Source of the DNA: an uncultured Gemmatimonadales bacterium
GTDB taxonomy: Bacteria; Gemmatimonadota; Gemmatimonadetes; Longimicrobiales; Gaopeijiaceae
Reading direction: 5' to 3'
DNA: 64,000 nt
Assembly (NCBI GenBank): GCA_963809895.1
Contig: CAWELD010000003.1
Coordinates: 1,504,001 to 1,568,000 of the forward strand
Shown here: piece after piece, positions 1 to 61,850 of the stretch
Layout: each line of letters begins with the position of its first letter
How positions within the stretch are numbered: the stretch's first letter is position 1
The notes under the pieces: generated by a model
What the model saw: the letters and a program-made list of their open reading frames with translations, nothing else
What the model was told of the DNA's origin: nothing
The model's database searches: none
Program-made: the position numbers and the translations under genes

Positions 1-960
1 CGGGAAGCCCACGATGACGTCGGTGGACAGCGCGATGTCGGGAATGGCGGTGCGTACCATGTCCACCTTCTCCAGGAAGCTGTCCACGGTGTAGCGGCGG
101 AGCATGCGCTTCAGGGTGCGGTCGTTGCCCGACTGCAGCGGCAGGTGGAGCTGCTCGCAGACCGCCGGCTCCCGGGCCATCACCTCCACCAGATCGGCGG
201 TGACGTCGTTGGGATGCGGCGAGGTGAAGCGGACCCGCCGGATCCCGTCTACCCGGGCTACCGCCGACAGGAGTCGCGAGAAGGACCAGTCCCCGTACCG
301 ATACGAGTTCACGGTCTGGCCCAGCAGGGTCACCTCGGTGACGCCCGACTCGGCGATTCCCCGGATCTCCGCCAGCAGCTCGTCGGGATCCCGGTTCTTC
401 TCGGGCCCCCGCACGTAGGGCACGATGCAGAAGGTGCAGCGGTGGTCGCATCCCCGCTGGATCGGCACCCAGGCCGCCACCGACGACGAGCGCCGCTGCT
501 CCAGGCCCTGGTAGTTCTCGCGCGGATCCAGTTCCAGGACCGTGAGCTGCGGACCACGCCGTCGGGATGCGGGTCGCCCGGACGTGTCGCTCCGGTCGCC
601 GTCCAGCGCTTCCAGGGTGTCCGGGAGGCTCCGGTAACCGTCGGGTCCCATGACGAGATCCACGTAGGGTGCCTGCTCCAGCAGGGTCTCACCCATGCGC
701 TGGGCCATGCAGCCCGTGACCCCGATGACCATCTCCGGCCGTTCCCGCTTCAACCCGTTGAGCTGCGCCACGCGGCCCAGCACGCGCTGCTCGGCGTGCT
801 CGCGGATGGCGCAGGTGTTCACCAGCACCACGTCGGCCTCTTCGGGCGAAGTGGCGATGGCGTAGCCGCGAGCCTCGAGGATGCCTTCCATCAGCTCGCC
901 GTCGCTGATGTTCATCTGGCAACCGTAGGTCTCGACGTAGGCGCGCTTCTTCCGGTTCAT
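1..960 (-). CDS. miaB: tRNA-2-methylthio-N6-dimethylallyladenosine synthase (3' end runs off the window)
   Basis: Manual translation from ATG 960: MNRKKRAYVETYGCQMNISDGELM...NTCAIRE...GCMAQ...QRGCDHRCTFCIVPY (radical SAM CxxxCxxC). Missing from the ORF track because it is truncated by the window edge. Confidence 0.93.
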   Translation of the reverse strand, partial: MNRKKRAYVETYGCQMNISDGELMEGILEARGYAIATSPEEADVVLVNTCAIREHAEQRVLGRVAQLNGLKRERPEMVIGVTGCMAQRMGETLLEQAPYVDLVMGPDGYRSLPDTLEALDGDRSDTSGRPASRRRGPQLTVLELDPRENYQGLEQRRSSSVAAWVPIQRGCDHRCTFCIVPYVRGPEKNRDPDELLAEIRGIAESGVTEVTLLGQTVNSYRYGDWSFSRLLSAVARVDGIRRVRFTSPHPNDVTADLVEVMAREPAVCEQLHLPLQSGNDRTLKRMLRRYTVDSFLEKVDMVRTAIPDIALSTDVIVGFP

Positions 961-51119: not shown

Positions 51120-51195
51120 TGGGCGCTGAGGGATTCGAACCCCCGACCTCCTGCTTGTAAGGCAGGCGCTCTAAACCAAGCTGAGCTAAGCGCCC
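51120..51195 (-). tRNA. tRNA-Val(TAC); CCA not encoded
   Basis: Reverse complement GGGCGCT TA GCTC AGCTTGGTTTA GAGC G CCTGC CTTACAA GCAGG AGGTC GGGGG TTCGAAT CCCTC AGCGCCC A folds as a full cloverleaf. Confidence 0.97.
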
Positions 51196-51260
51196 TCGGG
51201 GTGTTTGCCGCTAATCCACGCGACAAACGGGGCTGACAAACCTAGCGGAAGTACGGGCGG

Positions 51261-51281: not shown

Positions 51282-52526
51282 TCACGCCCGCTCCCGAAGC
51301 TCACCGCCGCCGAGCACGACGTTGAGCATCGTCTCGGGGTCGGCCTGCTGGTACGAGTCCTTGAGCGCCTTCGTGCTCTTCCAGCCGCCGGCCGCCGCAA
51401 CATCCACGTCGGGTAGGTGCTTCCGCTCCGTGGCCCACTTCCTTCGGTAGGCGTGCCAGAGGGAGCCGTTTTGCGGTTCGACGCCGGCCAGCTTCTCACC
51501 GGCCCTCAGCCACTTATCTGCGAGGTGGCGGGTCATGGGCTGTTCCCGGTCCTCCGGCGACGGGAACAAGGGCGCCGCGCCGATGCCCGGCCGGTCCTTG
51601 CGGATACGGTCGAGCGCAGCCCGCACCGCCGGTCCGATCGGGACGACGGTCTCGCGGTTCGTCTTGTCGGTCTCCGCTGGCCAGCGGATCGCTCCGTGGG
51701 GTCCTTCGTCCAGCAGGAGGTCTCGGTACCGCAGGGCGCACACGGCGGAGATTCGCCGGCCAGTGCCGTTCACGATGTCGAGCAGCTCGCTCAGGTAGCT
51801 CCGTTGCGCCTTTCGCTGGTCCGTCCAGCGCGCCTCCATCTCGACTTGGTCCGACACTGCCCGGATGGCTTCGTATCGGTCCTGCGTCGCCACAGGGCGC
51901 CGAGGGTTCTCTTCGTGCGGTGCGTCGAAGCCTCGGACGGGGTTCTCGCGCATGAGGTAGTGGCCCTCGGGCATGCGCCACTTCGAGGCCCAATTGAACA
52001 CCCACCGCAGCCACTTGCAGTCGGCCTCCACGGTCCGGGCGCGCACCGGCCGGGGCTTGGTGTCACCCTTGGGACGTCGGCCTCGCGCGTCGATCATGCC
52101 GGACGCCCGAGCGTCGATGAACCGCTCCCAGTCCCGCAGGGCCACGTCGTGCGGGTCCAGATCACTTCCGAGGACCCGAAGCCACATCTCGAACCGTCGC
52201 TCGTCGGCGCGCTGCTCGCGCTGGCTCTTGCGCGGCGTCCTGTGGCGCCTGTAAAGGCCGAAGACTTCACCGAGGGTGGTCTCCCCCTTCGAGTGCCGTT
52301 CATCGGCGTCAGCGACGCATGCAGCCTGCTTCAGGGCGTAGGCCTTCGCACGGTCCCGGTCCCGGTAGCCCAATGAGCGCCGAACGTGTGCTCCGGCGTC
52401 CCCTTTGTTGGGGTCCCAGTACCGGACGTACAGCGGTCCCCCCGGGGTGCGCTCGTAGACGGTGATGGTGTTCGGGCGGTCCCCCGCCGAGAACGACCAT
52501 CGCTTCCGCTTCTTCCGCTTCACCAC
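51282..52526 (-). CDS. Tyrosine integrase
   Basis: Catalytic R (GTGRRISAV), K (TDKT), HxxR (WHAYRR), W (GGWKS), Y (DSYQ). Confidence 0.92.
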   Translation of the reverse strand: MVKRKKRKRWSFSAGDRPNTITVYERTPGGPLYVRYWDPNKGDAGAHVRRSLGYRDRDRAKAYALKQAACVADADERHSKGETTLGEVFGLYRRHRTPRKSQREQRADERRFEMWLRVLGSDLDPHDVALRDWERFIDARASGMIDARGRRPKGDTKPRPVRARTVEADCKWLRWVFNWASKWRMPEGHYLMRENPVRGFDAPHEENPRRPVATQDRYEAIRAVSDQVEMEARWTDQRKAQRSYLSELLDIVNGTGRRISAVCALRYRDLLLDEGPHGAIRWPAETDKTNRETVVPIGPAVRAALDRIRKDRPGIGAAPLFPSPEDREQPMTRHLADKWLRAGEKLAGVEPQNGSLWHAYRRKWATERKHLPDVDVAAAGGWKSTKALKDSYQQADPETMLNVVLGGGELRERA

Positions 52527-54730: not shown

Positions 54731-55141
54731 ATGCGACTTCTCTCCACCGCCCTGCTTGCCGCCTGCCTCTTCGCCCTCGCCTGCCGCACCACCTTCTCTC
54801 CGGGGGCGATCAACGCGCCTATGCCGGCACAGCTCGTGTCCACGGGGCTGGCCCGCGACTGGGGGTGCACGAAGCCCCAGGTTGAGAACCGAGCAAGGTT
54901 CTTGGCCGACAGCTTGGAGTACGGCCTGTACTACATTCCCGAGGTGGGCTGGGACGCGTGCGAGCTGCTCGCGCGTGATGGCCTGTGGGATGAGATCGAG
55001 GAATCAGACTCCCTGGCCGTCTGGCACTACTACGTGGCCGGGCGAGACCGGACCGTGACCCTGCGAGCCGACGAATACGGGCGATGGACGGTGGATGAAG
55101 TCGACTGGGAGGAAGGCAGAGGCCCGAACCGACGCCGCTGA
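54731..55141 (+). CDS. Hypothetical lipoprotein
   Basis: AGGAG upstream of ATG 54731; MRLLSTALLAACLFALAC lipobox. Confidence 0.7.
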   Translation: MRLLSTALLAACLFALACRTTFSPGAINAPMPAQLVSTGLARDWGCTKPQVENRARFLADSLEYGLYYIPEVGWDACELLARDGLWDEIEESDSLAVWHYYVAGRDRTVTLRADEYGRWTVDEVDWEEGRGPNRRR

Positions 55142-55238
55142 CGTCCCACATGGCGGGGGGCAAGGCCAATGAGCGGTTGGCTTCCGTCAGGGCGCCGGCC
55201 GGACCTGCCATCGAACCCTCGCGGGCCTCCCGAACTCA

Positions 55239-56036
55239 TCACCAAACCACCCGTTCCCATTCGCCGCCCGCCCGAGCACGACGCGCCGCGGCCACGATCG
55301 CCATTCGTTCAGCCACGGTAAGGTCATCAGAGACAACGTTCGCGGTATTCGCTGGATCGACCAGACGAGCAGTTCGGAACTCGTCCCCGAGGTAGCGAAG
55401 CACCTCTCCGAAGTTGTCAGCCACGGCCCCCGTGCGCCGTCCCCGAGTCGCGTTGAGTACCGCCAGTTCGAGTGCAAGCGACGGGAACTCGAGTCCGTGA
55501 AGTGCACGCCATATCTTCGTGAGCCGTACCTCCTCCAGCCGGCCGGAATCACGCACGAGGTTGATGTGCTTCGCCACGTCGGTCTGTGTCCAGCTATCTG
55601 CCTTTCGCCGGTACAGAGAGTGTCGGTTCACGAACCCACTCTGAATCCGGGCGGGCACGAGATCGATCTTGTGGTCCAAGACTTCCACACCGATCGAGAC
55701 GTTCTGCGCCCTGGGGCTCCAGCCCGAAAAGCCCGCCCGCTGGAACAGGGTCCAGTAGATCTGGGAAAGCGTCTCCGGGACGTCGTGTCGGACGGAGATG
55801 AACAGGTCGAGGTCCGTTTGACCTCCCACGGCGGTTCCCTTGGCGTTCGATCCGGAGACTTCGATCCCTCGTAGGTACTGTCCGCCCCACTCGCGCACCA
55901 CAGGATCGATCCATGCACGGAGCATGGCGATCGTGATCGGGCCTGCGCCGGTCGGGTAGCGCCGGAGCACCTGGCGGAGGTAGCGGTCTCCCTCAGACTC
56001 GAGCAGCAGCCCGAGGAGGCCCGAGTGCGTCGTCAT
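55239..56036 (-). CDS. CD-NTase (cGAS/DncV-like nucleotidyltransferase) B, short form
   Basis: SGSNAKGTAVGGQTDLDLF (GS...DxD), QNVSIG, KIDLVPA (third Asp), VRLTKIWR, FPSLALEL, DPANTAN. Confidence 0.88.
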   Translation of the reverse strand: MTTHSGLLGLLLESEGDRYLRQVLRRYPTGAGPITIAMLRAWIDPVVREWGGQYLRGIEVSGSNAKGTAVGGQTDLDLFISVRHDVPETLSQIYWTLFQRAGFSGWSPRAQNVSIGVEVLDHKIDLVPARIQSGFVNRHSLYRRKADSWTQTDVAKHINLVRDSGRLEEVRLTKIWRALHGLEFPSLALELAVLNATRGRRTGAVADNFGEVLRYLGDEFRTARLVDPANTANVVSDDLTVAERMAIVAAARRARAGGEWERVVW

Positions 56037-56791
56037 CAGCCGTTTCGGAGCTCCTCGCTCCAGATATCGAGGTCCATCGCGAGCGCAGTCCCAAGGCGCT
56101 GGAGTTCACGCATTAGTGCTGTGAAGAAGCCCACGAGCGCGGTGTCCTGATCGTACACGACCATCTCTCCGCCGTCCGTCGGCAGTTCAAACGCGCCGGC
56201 CTGTAGGGCTACCCCCAGCTGCAGCTCATCCTGTCCGTGGAGCTCCTCAAGGACGTTGCGGAACGTCTCCCCGAACGGATCGGCGTAGCTGGAGTCTACG
56301 GCCAAGATGCCACCAAGGATCAACTGGTCCGCCGGGTCCTTCCCCTTCTTCGGCTCGCCCTCGTAGGTGTAAATCGGTCCCGAAGTCCGGGCCAACGCTC
56401 GCACTGACGCCACTTTTTCCGCCGTCTCCCGAAGGGTGGCGCTGGAGATCTCCTGCTTGGCGTCGAACACAGCGTAGACACTCTCCGCTGGAACGAAGCA
56501 GGCCGTGCCCGCTTGGAAGAGAAACGGGGAGTACTGAGCGTCGTGGATGATGACGTCGAGCTGTCCAGAGACTCCACCCGCGTGATCTACGACGAACCCG
56601 CTCTGGACGGAGTACCTTCGCGGGAGGTAGGACGCGAGCATGTCTCGCCACCGCAGCTCGGCAGCAGCACCCTTCTCACCCTGATGAGGCATGATCCGAC
56701 GGTTGGCCGACAGTGCGGCCTCCATCTCGTCCTGCTTGGCCCGCATCAACTCGGCCACCGTAGGGGCCCGATCAAGGCGCTCAAGCGTCAT
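56036..56791 (-). CDS. nucC: NucC-like cyclic-oligoadenylate-activated endonuclease
   Basis: HQGEKG..AE..W..ML..YLPRRY, FVVD, QLDVIIHD.QYSPF, VPAESVYAVFDAKQ, KVASVR.L.RTS, ILGGIL, LQ..GT: end-to-end match to recalled NucC motifs. Confidence 0.88.
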   Translation of the reverse strand: MTLERLDRAPTVAELMRAKQDEMEAALSANRRIMPHQGEKGAAAELRWRDMLASYLPRRYSVQSGFVVDHAGGVSGQLDVIIHDAQYSPFLFQAGTACFVPAESVYAVFDAKQEISSATLRETAEKVASVRALARTSGPIYTYEGEPKKGKDPADQLILGGILAVDSSYADPFGETFRNVLEELHGQDELQLGVALQAGAFELPTDGGEMVVYDQDTALVGFFTALMRELQRLGTALAMDLDIWSEELRNG

Positions 56792-57239
56792 CCTCGTCTC
56801 CGTCCTTGCTGGGAAACTCCTGGTGAGAGCTCGGCCCGAGCCAGGCGCCGACCTGCTTCCAGACCTCGTAGTACTGCAGCCACAGTGCGGCCCACATCAC
56901 GACTGTGCCGGCAAGCGACTCAACGTCCTTCCAACGCCACTCCTTGGGCCAGTGGAGGCACAGGCTGCCGTCAGGCCATCGATGCGGCGCATCCGGATCG
57001 AGCCGTGGGCAGTCCACAAATACGCTCGGTGGTCCCCGCCGTTCGTACACGACCCGAATCCTGTACGAGTCGGAGTGGGGGCTGGGCTGTAGGTCTCCCG
57101 TCCACGTCACACGCCGGTCCCTACCCACCCCCGCTTCCAAACCCGGGAAGTCCCGCGCCATCGCCGCGATTTGCCCCCGCGGGTCCCGCGGCCGGCGATA
57201 CTGGCCCGGGCCGTGCCCGAGACTACTTCTCCGGCCCAT
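56781..57239 (-). CDS. Stand-alone E2-like protein of type II (short) CBASS
   Basis: W.G.LQP.P.S..Y, PHRWPDGSLCLHWP (catalytic Cys), WLQYYEVWKQVGAWLG; overlaps the cyclase A stop. Confidence 0.82.
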   Translation of the reverse strand: MGRRSSLGHGPGQYRRPRDPRGQIAAMARDFPGLEAGVGRDRRVTWTGDLQPSPHSDSYRIRVVYERRGPPSVFVDCPRLDPDAPHRWPDGSLCLHWPKEWRWKDVESLAGTVVMWAALWLQYYEVWKQVGAWLGPSSHQEFPSKDGDEDDA

Positions 57240-58269
57240 GGAAGGTCGTCGGCCTGCTTTGAGACGATCCAGAGGTCGCCGTCGCCGAGATGGCACCGGA
57301 CGACGAGACGAATGCCTTTCCGGGCGTGGCGGCTACAGCGGCTGCGAGCGCTTCGTTCTCCACTTCGGCCTCCGACGGCCAGAGCGTCGGGTAGACCTTC
57401 CGCCAGACCGCATGCGCGTCCTCGTCGCAGTCCGCGTCGACTGCCTTCCGCGCGGCCGCCGCCGCTTCACGAACCCTCCGCATGAACGCCTCGAACTCGT
57501 CTCGTCTCCAGCCAGAGGAGATCACTGTGTGGAGCTGGGGGTCCAGCACGCGTGGCACACCATCCCCATCATCCATCAGCTTCTCCCACTTCGACGCCAC
57601 ATGCTCGAAGAAGTGGCAGACGTTCTGCGCGGTGGACCGCCCTTCGAGGACCACGTTCCCCCCGACGACCGAGTGGTAGACGATCACCTCCAGGAGGTAG
57701 CTCTTCGGGCGCCGGTACACCATCTGCTCGTCCCGCCACGCCTTCACCAGCTTGATCAGCGGGATGAGCTTCTTGGCGTGATCCGCGTTGGCGGCCGAGA
57801 GACTCTTCCCGTAGCCGAGGGGGTCGGAGTTGATCCACTCCTGCTTGCTGCGATCCGGTATCCGCAGGGGAGCCTCAAGGCCCTCGTCCGCGACGGCCCC
57901 GACGATATCCAGGCAGAGGTCGTGAGCCGGGAAGTCAAGCCGGATCGAGCGCCGCTGCGGCGAGGCCTCTGCGGAGGCATCCGGATACTCGCTGAGGACG
58001 GTCTTCAGCTCACGGAGAACGCTCTCCGGGGTCCGGTCGAGGGCCTCATCCGGCAGGAACACCAGCGTATCGACGTCCTTGATCTCGCCGATCGCCGTGT
58101 GTCGTCCATACGACCCGATCAAACGTGAGTGTGGCGACGCCGTCTCGAAGTCGTGTTCCTTGAGCCACTCCCGAACCTCTCCGGGCAACCGCTGAGCGGC
58201 CGTGAGCCGGTCGTCAGATGGATTGACCTTCTTGAGCAGGGCCGAGAACGCGAAACGGGATGAAGCCAC
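57223..58269 (-). CDS. CD-NTase (SMODS) cyclase A with C-terminal FHG tail
   Basis: IGSYGRHTAIGEIKDVD, QRRSI, LDIV, NSDPLGY, LIKLVKAWR, KSYLLE; flexible tail ending RPTTFHG-PEK; GGAGG RBS before GTG. Confidence 0.9.
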   Translation of the reverse strand: MASSRFAFSALLKKVNPSDDRLTAAQRLPGEVREWLKEHDFETASPHSRLIGSYGRHTAIGEIKDVDTLVFLPDEALDRTPESVLRELKTVLSEYPDASAEASPQRRSIRLDFPAHDLCLDIVGAVADEGLEAPLRIPDRSKQEWINSDPLGYGKSLSAANADHAKKLIPLIKLVKAWRDEQMVYRRPKSYLLEVIVYHSVVGGNVVLEGRSTAQNVCHFFEHVASKWEKLMDDGDGVPRVLDPQLHTVISSGWRRDEFEAFMRRVREAAAAARKAVDADCDEDAHAVWRKVYPTLWPSEAEVENEALAAAVAATPGKAFVSSSGAISATATSGSSQSRPTTFHGPEK

Positions 58270-58398
58270 GGCGAACCTCCAGCGGGATCGAAGACACCCA
58301 GAACTGGAGATCTGCCCGCGTGCTGGGGAGAGGCTCCGCAGCGCAGGCCGCTACCGTCGAGTGTCGAAATGGTCTGTGGGCACACTCGTACCCTTCGC

Positions 58399-58471
58399 AA
58401 TGTGGCGTGAAAGCCGCGCGAGGTCAACCCTATGCAGTGGTATGAACTTAGGAGGCCACAATATGTTGTGG
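58399..58471 (-). promoter_or_regulatory. Putative CBASS promoter with tandem NrdR-box-like palindromes
   Basis: TTGACC (58427-58422) - 17 bp - CACATT (58404-58399); boxes CAACCCTATGCAGTGG (58425-58440) and CCACAATATGTTGTGG (58456-58471). Confidence 0.6.
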
Positions 58472-58547
58472 TACTTCGGCCCCTGTTCGGGAGCGCGGCA
58501 TCGTCGTCAAGGCCAGGAGATTCGCGAACACCGTTTCAAGGACTTTC

Positions 58548-58736
58548 TCAACGGGCGGGGTTCAAGAACTTTCCCGTCCCGGCATCCGCCTTGGGCTTGA
58601 TGAGGTCTCTTTCGTGCGCCAGCTCGTCGAGGTCCCGTTGCGTGGCCGAGAGGGCCTTGTCGGCCTGGACCATTTCCCGGTAAAGCTGCTCGCCGGGCCG
58701 AACCACGTCGATCGGCAGGAAGTAGGTGCGGGCCAT
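58548..58736 (-). CDS. Small hypothetical protein
   Basis: ATG immediately after the upstream TAG; GGAGG RBS; coiled-coil-like. Confidence 0.45.
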   Translation of the reverse strand: MARTYFLPIDVVRPGEQLYREMVQADKALSATQRDLDELAHERDLIKPKADAGTGKFLNPAR

Positions 58737-59000
58737 CTAGGCCACCTCCCCGTCGGGTCCAAACGCAATGTCCAAGAACCTGGCGGCCTGCCGAAATCCC
58801 CGAGAGATGGCATCGTCTTGAGCCTGTTTCTCCCGTTCGAGCATCTCGGCCTGGTGCTCGACATGCGCCGCACCGTTCTCCAACAGCTCGCGCACCCATT
58901 CCGACGTCCACTTCCCGAGCAGGGACGCCGCATGATGAACGCGGTCGTACATCTCGGGGGTCATCCTGACCGTCAAGGTCTCTGACTTCGTTCTCGCCAT
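58737..59000 (-). CDS. Ribbon-helix-helix DNA-binding protein
   Basis: MARTKSETLTVRMTPEMYDRVHHAA...TSEWVRELL; AGGAGG RBS. Confidence 0.7.
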   Translation of the reverse strand: MARTKSETLTVRMTPEMYDRVHHAASLLGKWTSEWVRELLENGAAHVEHQAEMLEREKQAQDDAISRGFRQAARFLDIAFGPDGEVA

Positions 59001-59174
59001 CTGTGGTGGCCCTCCTGTCTGCAATGCGAGTCGCGGACGCCGCACCTCGTGTGCGACTCGTCACGGCGACCCGCCCAGGTCGTTCGCCTCCCAATCTGAA
59101 GATCCGACCGGAATGGGCAACGCAGATGTCGGCACATCCGAAATACGTTGCGCGCACCTGCGCGTCAGGCCGGG

Positions 59175-59246: not shown

Positions 59247-60257
59247 ATGTCCGGGAAGCAACTGGAGATCGGCAACCTTCTGACCGACGCCAAGACGCCC
59301 TCGCTGGCGAGCGACGGAGGCTCGTTGGAGCAGCTCGCGAAGACCTTCAAAGATGGCCTCAGCGAGAACACGCGGCGCGCCTACGCACAGGATCTCCGGG
59401 ACTGCGCTCACTTCCTGGCGCGCCATTCCGGCGAGGTCGACCCGGACGTCTCCGAGCTGCCCGAGGGTGCGGCGTACGTGGCCCGGAAGCTTCTGCCCAA
59501 TGGCCAGGGCATGGCCAACGCCCTTGTAATCGGGTACCGGAGCTATCTTGGGGAGAAAGGCCGGGCCCCCGCCACGGTCAACCGCCGCCTCGCGGCAGTG
59601 CGCTCGCTGGTGAAGGCGGCCCGGTTGTTCGGGATCGTGACGTGGAAGCTGGAGGTCTCCAGCGTGAGGTCGCGGTCCTACCGGGACACGTCGGGTCCAG
59701 GGCTCAAGGGCTTCAAGAGAATGATGGCCAAGGCCAGGGCCGACGACACAGCCAAGGGTGTGCGCGACCGCGCAATCCTCCGGCTGCTATGGGACCTGGC
59801 CCTCCGCCGGTCCGAGGTCGTGGGGCTCGATGTCGAGGACGTCGACCTGGAGCGCGGGCGCCTCATGGTCCACGGGAAGGGGCGAGGCGAGCCTGAATTG
59901 ATGACACTACCGGACGGGACGAAGGCCGCGCTCGGGCGGTGGCTGGAGGTCCGAGGCGAGCACGATGGGGCCCTCTTCACGAACTTCGACCGGGCCAGTA
60001 AGGGCGACGGGCGCCTGAGCGGCACCTCGGTCTACCGGATGGTATGCCAGCGCGGAGAAGATGCGGACGTGAAGGACGTGCGCCCCCATGGCATCCGGCA
60101 CGCTGCCATCACGCACGCGCTGGACAAGTTCGACGGCGACGTTCGGACGGTATCGAAGTTCAGCCGACACCGGGACGTGCGCGTGCTCATGACCTACGAT
60201 GACAACCGCGAAGACCTCGGCGGCGAGGTCGCGTGTACGGTGGCGGCTGCGGTGTAG
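59247..60257 (+). CDS. Xer-like tyrosine recombinase/resolvase
   Basis: SENTRRAY, APATVNRRL, RDRAILRLL..ALRRSEV, HGKG, RPHGIRH, SRH, TYDD. Confidence 0.92.
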   Translation: MSGKQLEIGNLLTDAKTPSLASDGGSLEQLAKTFKDGLSENTRRAYAQDLRDCAHFLARHSGEVDPDVSELPEGAAYVARKLLPNGQGMANALVIGYRSYLGEKGRAPATVNRRLAAVRSLVKAARLFGIVTWKLEVSSVRSRSYRDTSGPGLKGFKRMMAKARADDTAKGVRDRAILRLLWDLALRRSEVVGLDVEDVDLERGRLMVHGKGRGEPELMTLPDGTKAALGRWLEVRGEHDGALFTNFDRASKGDGRLSGTSVYRMVCQRGEDADVKDVRPHGIRHAAITHALDKFDGDVRTVSKFSRHRDVRVLMTYDDNREDLGGEVACTVAAAV

Positions 60258-60299
60258 GAGGAGGATGTCGAGCGTGCGGCTCGCTCCAAAGCTGAACAG

Positions 60300-61850
60300 G
60301 GCGGCCAGCTCCTGCTACGTCTCGGAATGTTCTCTCCGTGCATGCCGCCAAGAACAGCCCCCCCAATTCGGTGAGGATGGAGTCTTCATCCGAGAGCGAG
60401 CGCATGCGAAAGGGGGCGCGAGTCGGGATGTTGTCTGAGGTCACCACGCGTCCGGCCTTCCAGCGTCGGAAGAACACGGGCTCTCCACCCCACCCAAGGA
60501 AGGAGGCCGGGCCGGCAGAGAACCGCTCCCAGAGCACATCGCCTTCTCTTCGAGACGGTTCCGTAGCCATGTCGCGATGGGACATGCTGCATGAAGCCGT
60601 TGACGACGCCGGCGACCGCTCTGGTGGTCGGCGAGCTAGCCATGTGAGATCCACGGTCGCCAGGCCCTCATCATCTATCCACGGTCTGATCGGGGGTGAC
60701 GCGTCCTGCACAGCCTCGGCTAGTTCCTCGACCGCCTTTCGTGGCACTGCCAATACGCTTGGCAGTCTTGCGGACCGCGATGATGCCATGGCCACCGTGT
60801 ACGGAAACTCCCTGTGCTGGAGGGCGTCCCTAATCGGATAGAAGCTCTCGATGGCTTTCGTAGTCCGGTCACTCGACACGAACTCCGCTAGGCTTGAGTT
60901 GTGTTGACCGATCAGCTTCATTGCCCGTGATTCGCCCTTCCTGGGAAGGCGAAGGGTCCGCTCATGCTTCCTGAGATTCAGGGAGTACACATCGTCGGCG
61001 AGAGCGGCCAAGTCGTCAAACGCCCCGGTGGCCAGCATGTACTGGAATGCCAGATGGAAGAGCGCGCGAGCCTCCGTGTCGTTGTTCGCGGTCTTGAGCG
61101 AGGCGATTTCGGCTGCATCCGTGGTGCGACACAGGAAGTCCAATCGCCTTGCGAGCCCCGAAAGCCGCCTCTCGCGTCTGCCTCCCCCAAAGAACCATGC
61201 CCGCCTGAAATCGGGGAACACGAGGTCCTTTCGGAAGAGGTAGTAGAAACCTTCGTTACCCCAAACCCCGGGTTGGCCTCGAAGTGTTCACGCGCGACGC
61301 ATAGGAGGCGAAGATGGTTCAACAGTTCAGGCCAGGTGCAATAGATGGCGTACCTCCGGCCCGACCTCGGTAATGACGACACGGCCGCATGAGACCCCAC
61401 GACGAGATCCACATGGCGCCTCAGGAGGACCGCGAGGTATTCGATTGCCGCACCCTCCGATCCCTCGCCCTCAAGGCTACGAAAGTGCTCATAGGTCCGG
61501 TGCGGACCTAGCAAGGAGCGCGACGTGGGCCGGTGCAACACCACATGGCCCTCGTCGACATGAACCTCCCCGATCGTGGCTTGATTCCCTGCCAAGGGCC
61601 TTGGGAGGTCTTGGTGCCCCGGTATGAGGCAAAGGTCGATGAAGTCGTAGTCGGCCAACTCCGCCAACCGACCGATGGCATCGTCGGACATGCCGACGAG
61701 GGCGGTGGGCCCGACGATCACCGACACCTCGGGTTCGACCCATCGCACCCGATCGTATGGATTACCTGTATCAGTACTGAAGCGGGTCATTCCTCTCGAA
61801 CGGGTCGAAGGTGGTTTCAGGTGACTTCCGATAGCCGACATCCGGTCCAA
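60300..61850 (-). pseudogene. Frameshifted gene with HEPN-like RxxxxH motif
   Basis: ORFs 60978-61850 and 60187-61221 join by a single-base shift near 61255 (FGV/NEGFYYLFR); RDALQH motif; further shifts near 60620. Ends approximate. Confidence 0.5.

What the first reader, a model, noticed from the sequence alone, without database searches (positions are those of the whole stretch)
56781..57330. Cyclase A has a capped FHG tail next to a lone E2, with no E1 or JAB
Seen: cyclase A ends in a Ser/Ala/Thr-rich linker and RPTTFHG-PEK; the next gene has PHRWPDGSLCLHWP; there is no E1 (Cap2) or JAB (Cap3) gene in the window. Established: type II CBASS cyclases are conjugated through a C-terminal Gly, and in type II (short) systems a single E2 processes and conjugates the cyclase. 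Inference: E2 removes PEK and forms a thioester with cyclase A. Cyclase B or NucC could be the conjugation target, which would link the two modules.
Basis: partly seen in the sequence, partly recalled or inferred. Interest (0 to 1): 0.7.

Follow-up and report, generated by a model that had tools for sequence, protein, structure and literature searches.

The report
E2-CBASS operon with second cyclase
This is a four-gene bacterial anti-phage operon of a known kind, in which a lone ubiquitin-type E2 enzyme likely clips and tags its signal-making enzyme; its unusual part is a second signal-making enzyme that likely switches on the same DNA-cutting nuclease by a separate route rather than being tagged itself.

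Summary
Cyclase A ends ...RPTTFHG-PEK, the next gene is a lone E2, and the window has no E1 or JAB. This is the published E2-CBASS (type II short) design. The E2 matches Serratia SmE2 by sequence and fold and keeps the catalytic His86/Cys94 (52 of 52). Gly345 is invariant (98 of 98) and aligns structurally to SmCdnG Gly406. The cap is hypervariable. The 'linker' is a predicted folded E2-binding motif. Processing and thioester formation are therefore likely but already known. The idea that cyclase B or NucC is the conjugation target is not supported. A-E2 pairs use four effector types and often lack a second cyclase. B-type cyclases usually stand alone with NucC, or join operons that have no conjugation enzyme. 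What is less ordinary: A is clade-D-like rather than clade G, and a tail-less second cyclase follows NucC in two separate lineages, from two unrelated cyclase families. Best reading: two cyclases, one NucC, two inputs (untested). I found no paper on two-CD-NTase operons. Earlier notes of this scan report similar dual-cyclase CBASS loci on other DNA.

The parts
57223..58269 (-). Cyclase A: CD-NTase (SMODS), clade-D-like fold, intact G52-S53, D65, D67, D121; lid residues S148/Y153
57235..57372 (-). Residues 300-345 of A: predicted helix plus small beta-sheet (E2-binding motif) ending in F343-H344-G345
   Evidence: (alignment range ends at A345 / SmCdnG406)
57226..57234 (-). Cap P346-E347-K348; non-conserved; encoded in the overlap with the start of the E2 gene
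56781..57239 (-). Stand-alone E2 (152 aa); His86, Cys94, His139, Lys145; its ATG lies inside A's His344-Gly345 codons
56036..56791 (-). NucC endonuclease effector (D79...D110-A-K112); overlaps the E2 gene by 11 nt
55239..56036 (-). Cyclase B: short, tail-less, CdnC-like CD-NTase (PDLC00803), intact D75/D77/D125, lid T152/H157; TGATG-coupled to NucC
51153..51202 (.). 50-bp att core overlapping tRNA-Val (51120-51195); repeated with 1 mismatch at C3:1572817-1572866 (window-equivalent 68817-68866), bounding a 17.7-kb integrated element that carries the operon
51282..52526 (-). Tyrosine integrase of the element, next to the tRNA

Best explanation
The four overlapping genes form an E2-CBASS anti-phage operon in which the lone E2 likely cuts PEK off cyclase A and conjugates A, while cyclase B likely acts as a second, untagged signal source for the same NucC nuclease. 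Steps: (1) Shown in sequence: tail, E2 active site, gene coupling. (2) Inferred from SmE2/SmCdnG, about 0.9: the E2 docks on A's helix/sheet motif, His86/Cys94 attack the Gly345-Pro346 bond without ATP or E1, and a Cys94 thioester forms. (3) Inferred, about 0.7: the thioester passes to Lys145 of the E2, parking A in an inhibited A-E2 adduct; on infection His139-dependent reversal and A-A chains would activate A. (4) Inferred, about 0.75: A makes a cyclic trinucleotide that activates NucC, which degrades DNA (abortive infection). (5) Inferred, about 0.55: B makes cA3 on a different phage cue, giving an OR gate on one effector; B is dispensable for the core.
For: E2: PADLOC E2 6.8e-39; 8HSB_B E=1e-9 with H87/C101/H152 aligned to H86/C94/H139; top Foldseek hits 8YJY_B and 8HSB_B, then eukaryotic E2s; H86 and C94 in 52 of 52. 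Mechanism shown for the Serratia pair. A's closest structures are CdnD trinucleotide synthases, and A-E2 alone pairs with NucC in 7 clusters spread over the tree. B: best PDB match E. coli CdnC 3e-13; Thr/His lid, which PMC13424991 links to cAAA in clade C/D enzymes; stand-alone B-NucC in 13 of 17 plasmid loci. The window's NucC groups with A-E2-NucC nucleases, not B-NucC ones. The same A-E2-NucC-B order is present in G914 (L124). A different tail-less cyclase family fills the same slot in 11 of 18 scorable clusters.
Against: No activity was measured. A's lid (Ser/Tyr) is that of the dinucleotide-making SmCdnG rather than Thr/His or Thr/Gln, so A's product is uncertain. The residue after Gly345 is Pro; Gly-Pro bonds resist many proteases (recalled), although 8 of 106 caps begin with Pro. 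9 of 49 scorable E2 tails have no lysine after the His. In L124 both cyclase genes are frameshifted, so the one direct second copy may be decayed or mis-assembled. The closest A-E2-NucC loci that could be read past NucC (L014, L015) lack B. The 11 clusters with the other second cyclase probably stem from one gain, so the independent events number about two. B-like genes also sit beside Cap5/SAVED effectors (L110, L120) that need not read cA3.
Confidence: 0.58

Rival explanations
1. Relay: A (E2-gated) does not make NucC's ligand; its product or its conjugated form switches on B, which makes cA3 for NucC.
For: A has a Ser/Tyr lid like SmCdnG, whereas B (Thr/His) and the other second cyclase (Asn-Gly-Ser-Tyr, Thr/Gln) carry trinucleotide-type signatures. 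An adjacent second cyclase was seen only with NucC: 11 of 18 NucC clusters, against 0 of 13 scorable SAVED clusters (one of which has cyclases 1 kb away).
Against: 7 of 18 A-E2-NucC clusters lack an adjacent second cyclase and lie in several branches of the A and NucC trees. A's fold is closest to CdnD. The clusters are kin, not independent.
Confidence: 0.13
2. B makes a decoy or modulating nucleotide that soaks up phage sponges or nucleases or tunes NucC, loosely like Panoptes OptS.
For: B-like genes are added to CBASS operons with unrelated effectors and regulators (L050, L099, L110, L120). The window's B clade has Asn in place of Tyr/Phe after Gly-Ser in 13 of 15. Decoy signalling is established for Panoptes (PMC12657218).
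Against: B's predicted product (cA3) activates NucC (10.1101/694703), so constitutive synthesis would be toxic. No nucleotide-repressed effector is encoded in the operon.
Confidence: 0.12
3. B is a passenger left from a merger of an A-E2-NucC system with a B-NucC system and adds nothing.
For: B is absent from L014 and L015. The operon lies on a mobile element. The G914 copy is frameshifted.
Against: B is translationally coupled to NucC, keeps all catalytic residues in its 15-member clade, and that clade spans 55-74% identity while 9 of 15 members share a contig length with an A or NucC hit (control mean 0.27).
Confidence: 0.1
4. One reading: the E2 transfers A onto a lysine of B or of NucC, physically linking the modules.
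For: The genes are coupled in one operon. Cap2-type systems do conjugate cyclases to other proteins, such as PspA (PMC11153139; the paper appeared, the PspA detail is recalled).
Against: SmE2's acceptors are its own Lys159 and the cyclase. Effectors vary freely among A-E2 pairs. B has only 5 lysines, the conserved ones being equally conserved in the rest of the B family. B-type genes join operons in which no E2 was found (L099, L120). The second-cyclase slot is filled by unrelated families (22-26% identity over short stretches).
Confidence: 0.07

Closest known systems
E2-CBASS / type II (short) CBASS of Serratia marcescens (SmCdnG-SmE2; PDB 8HSB, 8YJY, 9KKB; 10.1101/2022.05.25.493364; PMC12948482)
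   Same: Lone E2 with His/Cys/His/Lys, cyclase with helix-sheet E2-binding motif, C-terminal Gly with a removable cap, no E1 or JAB.
   Different: Cyclase is clade-D-like (SmCdnG 18% identical in the structural alignment; PMC12948482 says 73.65% of E2-CBASS cyclases are clade G); effector is NucC, not 2TM-SAVED; no exonuclease gene; three-residue cap starting with Pro; a second CD-NTase closes the operon.
CdnC/CdnD-NucC systems (E. coli MS115-1 CdnC, P. aeruginosa CdnD; type I XpCdnC03-NucC)
   Same: NucC effector (E=5e-37 to 6P7O); cyclase B is CdnC-like with a Thr/His lid, and its family is usually a two-gene cyclase-NucC unit.
   Different: No HORMA or TRIP13 gene in the operon; B lies after NucC and shares it with an E2-controlled cyclase. 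Assignment of B to subclade C03 is recalled, not tested.
CBASS-DAC / DS-2 (PMC13069673)
   Same: Two nucleotide cyclases and one effector in one CBASS operon.
   Different: There the second enzyme is a DAC-family diadenylate cyclase and is the essential one; here both are CD-NTases and one is E2-gated.
Type II (long) CBASS (Cap2 E1-E2, Cap3 JAB)
   Same: Conjugation through the cyclase's C-terminal Gly.
   Different: No E1 or JAB here; the E2 is of the SmE2 type (Cap2 ranks 19th, E=0.05).

Membership tests
E2-CBASS (type II short) | CD-NTase with intact catalytic motifs | tested here: met
   SMODS above cut-off; G52, S53, D65, D67 in 98 of 98, D121 in 97 of 98
E2-CBASS (type II short) | Stand-alone E2 next to the cyclase, no E1-E2 fusion or JAB | tested here: met
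   no ThiF or Prok-JAB match in the window
E2-CBASS (type II short) | E2 catalytic His and Cys (SmE2 H87, C101) | tested here: met
   H86 and C94 align with them and are invariant in 52 of 52
E2-CBASS (type II short) | C-terminal loop His and Lys (SmE2 H152, K159) | tested here: met
   H139 aligns with H152; K145 lies 6 residues on (7 in SmE2), matched by spacing only; Lys present in 40 of 49 scorable tails
E2-CBASS (type II short) | Conserved C-terminal Gly behind a helix plus beta-sheet motif | tested here: met
   VIA-align range 1..345 against 8HSB_A 14..406, Z 22.6, rmsd 6.1, 325 aligned
E2-CBASS (type II short) | Effector gene in the operon | tested here: met
   NucC
E2-CBASS (type II short) | Processing, thioester/isopeptide formation, cyclase chains and phage defence | not testable with these tools
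   shown only for the Serratia pair
Clade G CD-NTase (typical of E2-CBASS, not defining) | Closest relatives are CdnG enzymes | tested here: not met
   best sequence and structure matches are CdnD, though the Ser/Tyr lid is CdnG-like; no formal clade tree was built
Type II (long) CBASS | Cap2 (E1-E2) and Cap3 (JAB) genes | tested here: not met
NucC | ID-x30-EAK active-site motif and full-length similarity to solved NucC | tested here: met
   D79-x30-D110-A-K112; Asp for Glu in 52 of 54 homologues; E=5e-37 to 6P7O
Clade C CD-NTase (cyclase B) | CdnC-like sequence with Thr/His lid | tested here: met
Clade C CD-NTase (cyclase B) | Membership of subclade C03 | not tested
   no reference sequence was available

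The most novel reading that the evidence does not exclude
A two-cyclase cascade: the E2-gated cyclase A acts as the sensor and switches on a second, untagged CD-NTase (B here, an unrelated family in a sister lineage), which makes the trinucleotide for NucC. CBASS would then have a signal-amplifying relay that evolved at least twice.
Probability: 0.13. Interest if true: 0.78.

Novelty: new variant of a known kind. Interest (0 to 1): 0.4.

Why it matters
The capped tail and lone E2 are a textbook E2-CBASS, so the finding as written adds a member, not a mechanism. It does give a compact non-clade-G test case with an easy nuclease read-out for whether the Serratia chemistry is general, including a Gly-Pro scissile bond and natural A-E2 fusions. 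The open point is why two CD-NTases share one NucC. If each responds to a different phage cue, CBASS operons widen their range by stacking sensors on one effector. If one drives the other, that is a new signalling layer. Either is directly testable with four single mutants.

Tried and rejected
Co-folding of A, E2 and B was not available, so no complex was predicted. The viral-contig scan with B found nothing. No RNA holder was listed for the operon; two low-coverage DNA runs gave eight short contigs with no differences, which is uninformative. No sigma-70 promoter or intrinsic terminator consensus was found in 54900-58800. B alone had no PDB hit; the profile did. B was found in 2 of 401 (own phylum), 3 of 401 (own order) and 6 of 401 (phylum of G721) genomes; the E2 in 4 of 401; own genome included where applicable. 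P0059, a truncated copy of A, clusters with the full-length protein, which is on record, so I treat it as a frameshifted record from elsewhere. The apparent E2-NucC fusion P0282 reads out of frame in the E2 part and was rejected as an artefact or broken gene. The P0034 fusion has unfused cluster members and may be an indel artefact; L021/P0094, P0087 and P0092 come from other sources. L121, L126 and L127 are distant, mostly tail-bearing relatives of B and were not counted as B. Searches for two-CD-NTase operons returned no description. Millman 2020 and Burroughs 2015 are not held, and the supplements of PMC12948482 could not be read; any of these may list such operons or non-G E2-CBASS clades. 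The careful NucC tree did not finish; quick trees were used.

Full report
Anatomy. Four minus-strand genes overlap head to tail: cyclase A (57223-58269), E2 (56781-57239), NucC (56036-56791) and cyclase B (55239-56036). The overlaps are 17, 11 and 1 nt, and a GGAGG lies six bases before A's GTG. PADLOC calls them Cyclase (4.7e-59), E2 (6.8e-39), NucC (6.2e-75) and Cyclase PDLC00803 (1e-75). The operon is cargo of a 17.7-kb element (GC 0.63 against 0.70 for the contig) bounded by a 50-bp repeat that overlaps tRNA-Val and recurs 4.8 kb past the window's end. No other copy of these genes was found in the genome. The only ThiF match is about 383 kb away and the only JAB-like match is below cut-off and far off. 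The host is likely Gemmatimonadota; this is inferred because a same-class genome's locus (L097) clusters with L003, titled Gemmatimonadaceae.

The E2. Its one significant PDB sequence hit is SmE2 (8HSB_B, E=1e-9), aligning PHRWP...LCL with PHLYP...LCL and SSH with GKH. The AlphaFold model (mean pLDDT 85) has 8YJY_B and 8HSB_B as its only hits under E=0.001, followed by eukaryotic E2s. His86 and Cys94 are invariant in 52 of 52 sequences. A His ends the W-x-G-P-S-(S/P)-H loop, and a Lys follows it in 40 of 49 tails that my pattern could score. In the Serratia work (10.1101/2022.05.25.493364, parts 1-3 of 6 read), H87 and C101 cut off the residue after G406 and form the thioester, K159 takes the stable, inhibitory isopeptide, H152 reverses it, and cyclase chains are the active form.

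The tail. Of 120 listed homologues, 110 matched my tail pattern; the other 10 are mostly fragments or frameshifted. Gly345 is invariant in the 98-row alignment. The cap is therefore disposable. In the window, and in 27 of 58 scorable clusters, the E2 start codon lies inside the His/Tyr-Gly codons, so the cap is simply the other reading frame of the E2's N-terminus. The 'linker' is predicted as a helix and short strands, the motif that PMC12948482 (parts 1-3 of 4 read) describes as the E2-binding element. Of 50 entries shown, only SmCdnG aligns through it, ending at 345 against 406 (rmsd 6.1). One caveat: the residue after Gly is Pro, which from recall slows many proteases; 8 of 106 caps start with Pro.

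Cyclase A's class. Its best matches are CdnD enzymes by sequence (9SA4, 1e-19) and structure (Z about 29); PMC13424991 (passages) describes B. cereus CdnD as a cA3 synthase. Its lid is Ser/Tyr, as in SmCdnG, so the product cannot be read from the clade C/D rule. The effector partners argue for a trinucleotide: NucC, which cAAA activates (10.1101/694703, passages), occurs in 21 of 61 clusters, SAVED effectors in 19, a 1TM effector in 1, and 20 are cut or have none recognised.

Neighbourhoods of A. 84 loci (4 genomes; best 80 of 99 metagenome hits) fell into 61 clusters at 90% identity. An E2 follows in 58 of 58 with room. Of the 21 NucC clusters, 11 have a second cyclase within 200 bases of NucC, 7 have none adjacent (L029 has another about 1 kb on, past an unrelated gene), 2 are cut and 1 has NucC on the other strand. 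Of the 19 SAVED clusters, 12 have none, 6 are cut and 1 (L050) has two cyclases 1 kb downstream. That second cyclase is not B: it is a 310-aa tail-less family about 29% identical to A, with intact motifs and an Asn-Gly-Ser-Tyr, Thr/Gln signature. On quick trees these loci and the window's lineage are separate starred clades for both NucC and A, each also holding loci without a second cyclase. I read this as two gains and several losses. The 11 clusters are kin.

Cyclase B. Its family profile hits E. coli CdnC best. All three aspartates and lid Thr152 are invariant in 46 rows; His157 is in 43. I fetched 17 of 23 plasmid records: 13 have NucC directly downstream (2 of these broken), 3 are solitary, and 1 follows a cyclase-Cap2-Cap3 operon. 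Genome searches gave two more B-NucC pairs (L122, L123), a solitary B (L125), B before a longer cyclase and Cap4 (L099), a B-like gene after Cap5 and a cyclase (L120), three distant relatives not counted, and one exact A-E2-NucC-B copy in G914, with both cyclases frameshifted. The window's B lies in a 15-member clade (support 97). 9 of these 15 share a contig length with an A or NucC hit, against 1 of the other 104 and a shifted-length control mean of 0.27; this is indirect evidence of the same operon. The window's NucC belongs to the A lineage, not to the B-NucC plasmids.

Reading. The core is E2-CBASS and very likely works as in Serratia. B is an old, dispensable addition that looks catalytically intact. 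The simplest link is chemical, with two cyclases feeding one NucC; type I defence is reported to be cyclase-clade-specific (10.1101/2023.05.21.541620, passages), so a second cyclase would plausibly widen coverage. A relay, a decoy role (Panoptes, PMC12657218, passages) and a passenger role remain open. Conjugation onto B or NucC has the least support. No complex could be predicted.

Novelty. The mechanism in the finding is published. The published two-cyclase CBASS that I found pairs a CD-NTase with a DAC enzyme (PMC13069673, abstract and section 21). Full-text searches for two-CD-NTase operons found no description, but two key surveys and one paper's supplements were unavailable. Unchecked notes from this scan report dual-CD-NTase CBASS loci in other genomes; they are leads, not support. 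Verdict: new variant of a known kind, interest 0.4.

Noticed in passing
L021:5001-6464; P0034, P0087, P0092, P0094: Natural A-E2 fusions join directly after FHG, and all four fused E2s lack a lysine after the C-terminal His. The peptide bond may stand in for the inhibitory isopeptide, with the E2 cutting itself free. P0034 may be an indel artefact.
   Followed up: partly
L041:293-3412: An A-E2 pair lies directly upstream of a type III CRISPR cas10 gene, with a SAVED fragment upstream of A; possibly a CBASS-CRISPR hybrid sharing an effector.
   Followed up: no
L050:64-5794: Three CD-NTases in one locus: A-E2-Cap4, a 1-kb gap, then the 310-aa cyclase and a B-type cyclase; the contig ends 328 bases later.
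   Followed up: partly
L126:6591-8285: A clade-C-like (PDLC00803) cyclase with its own Phe-Gly-capped tail is followed by a 265-aa gene with a weak E2 score; E2-type conjugation may also have been grafted onto the B family.
   Followed up: no
L021, L023: A-E2 without a recognised effector, followed by what looks like a VapBC-type pair (label recalled, not tested).
   Followed up: no
window 55998-56036 (minus): B has a 13-residue N-terminal extension (TTHSGLLGLLLE) created by coupling to NucC's stop codon; similar extensions occur in its seven closest hits by length (P0125-P0130, P0134) but not in most of the family.
   Followed up: partly
window 58548-59045 (minus), 59247-60257 (plus): A NikA-like ribbon-helix-helix gene, a 62-aa ORF and a second tyrosine recombinase lie upstream of the operon inside the element; none of those scanned matched a PADLOC model.
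   Followed up: no
window 60187-61850 (minus): Two overlapping long ORFs (344 and 290 aa) without Pfam or PADLOC matches; possibly one frameshifted cargo gene.
   Followed up: no
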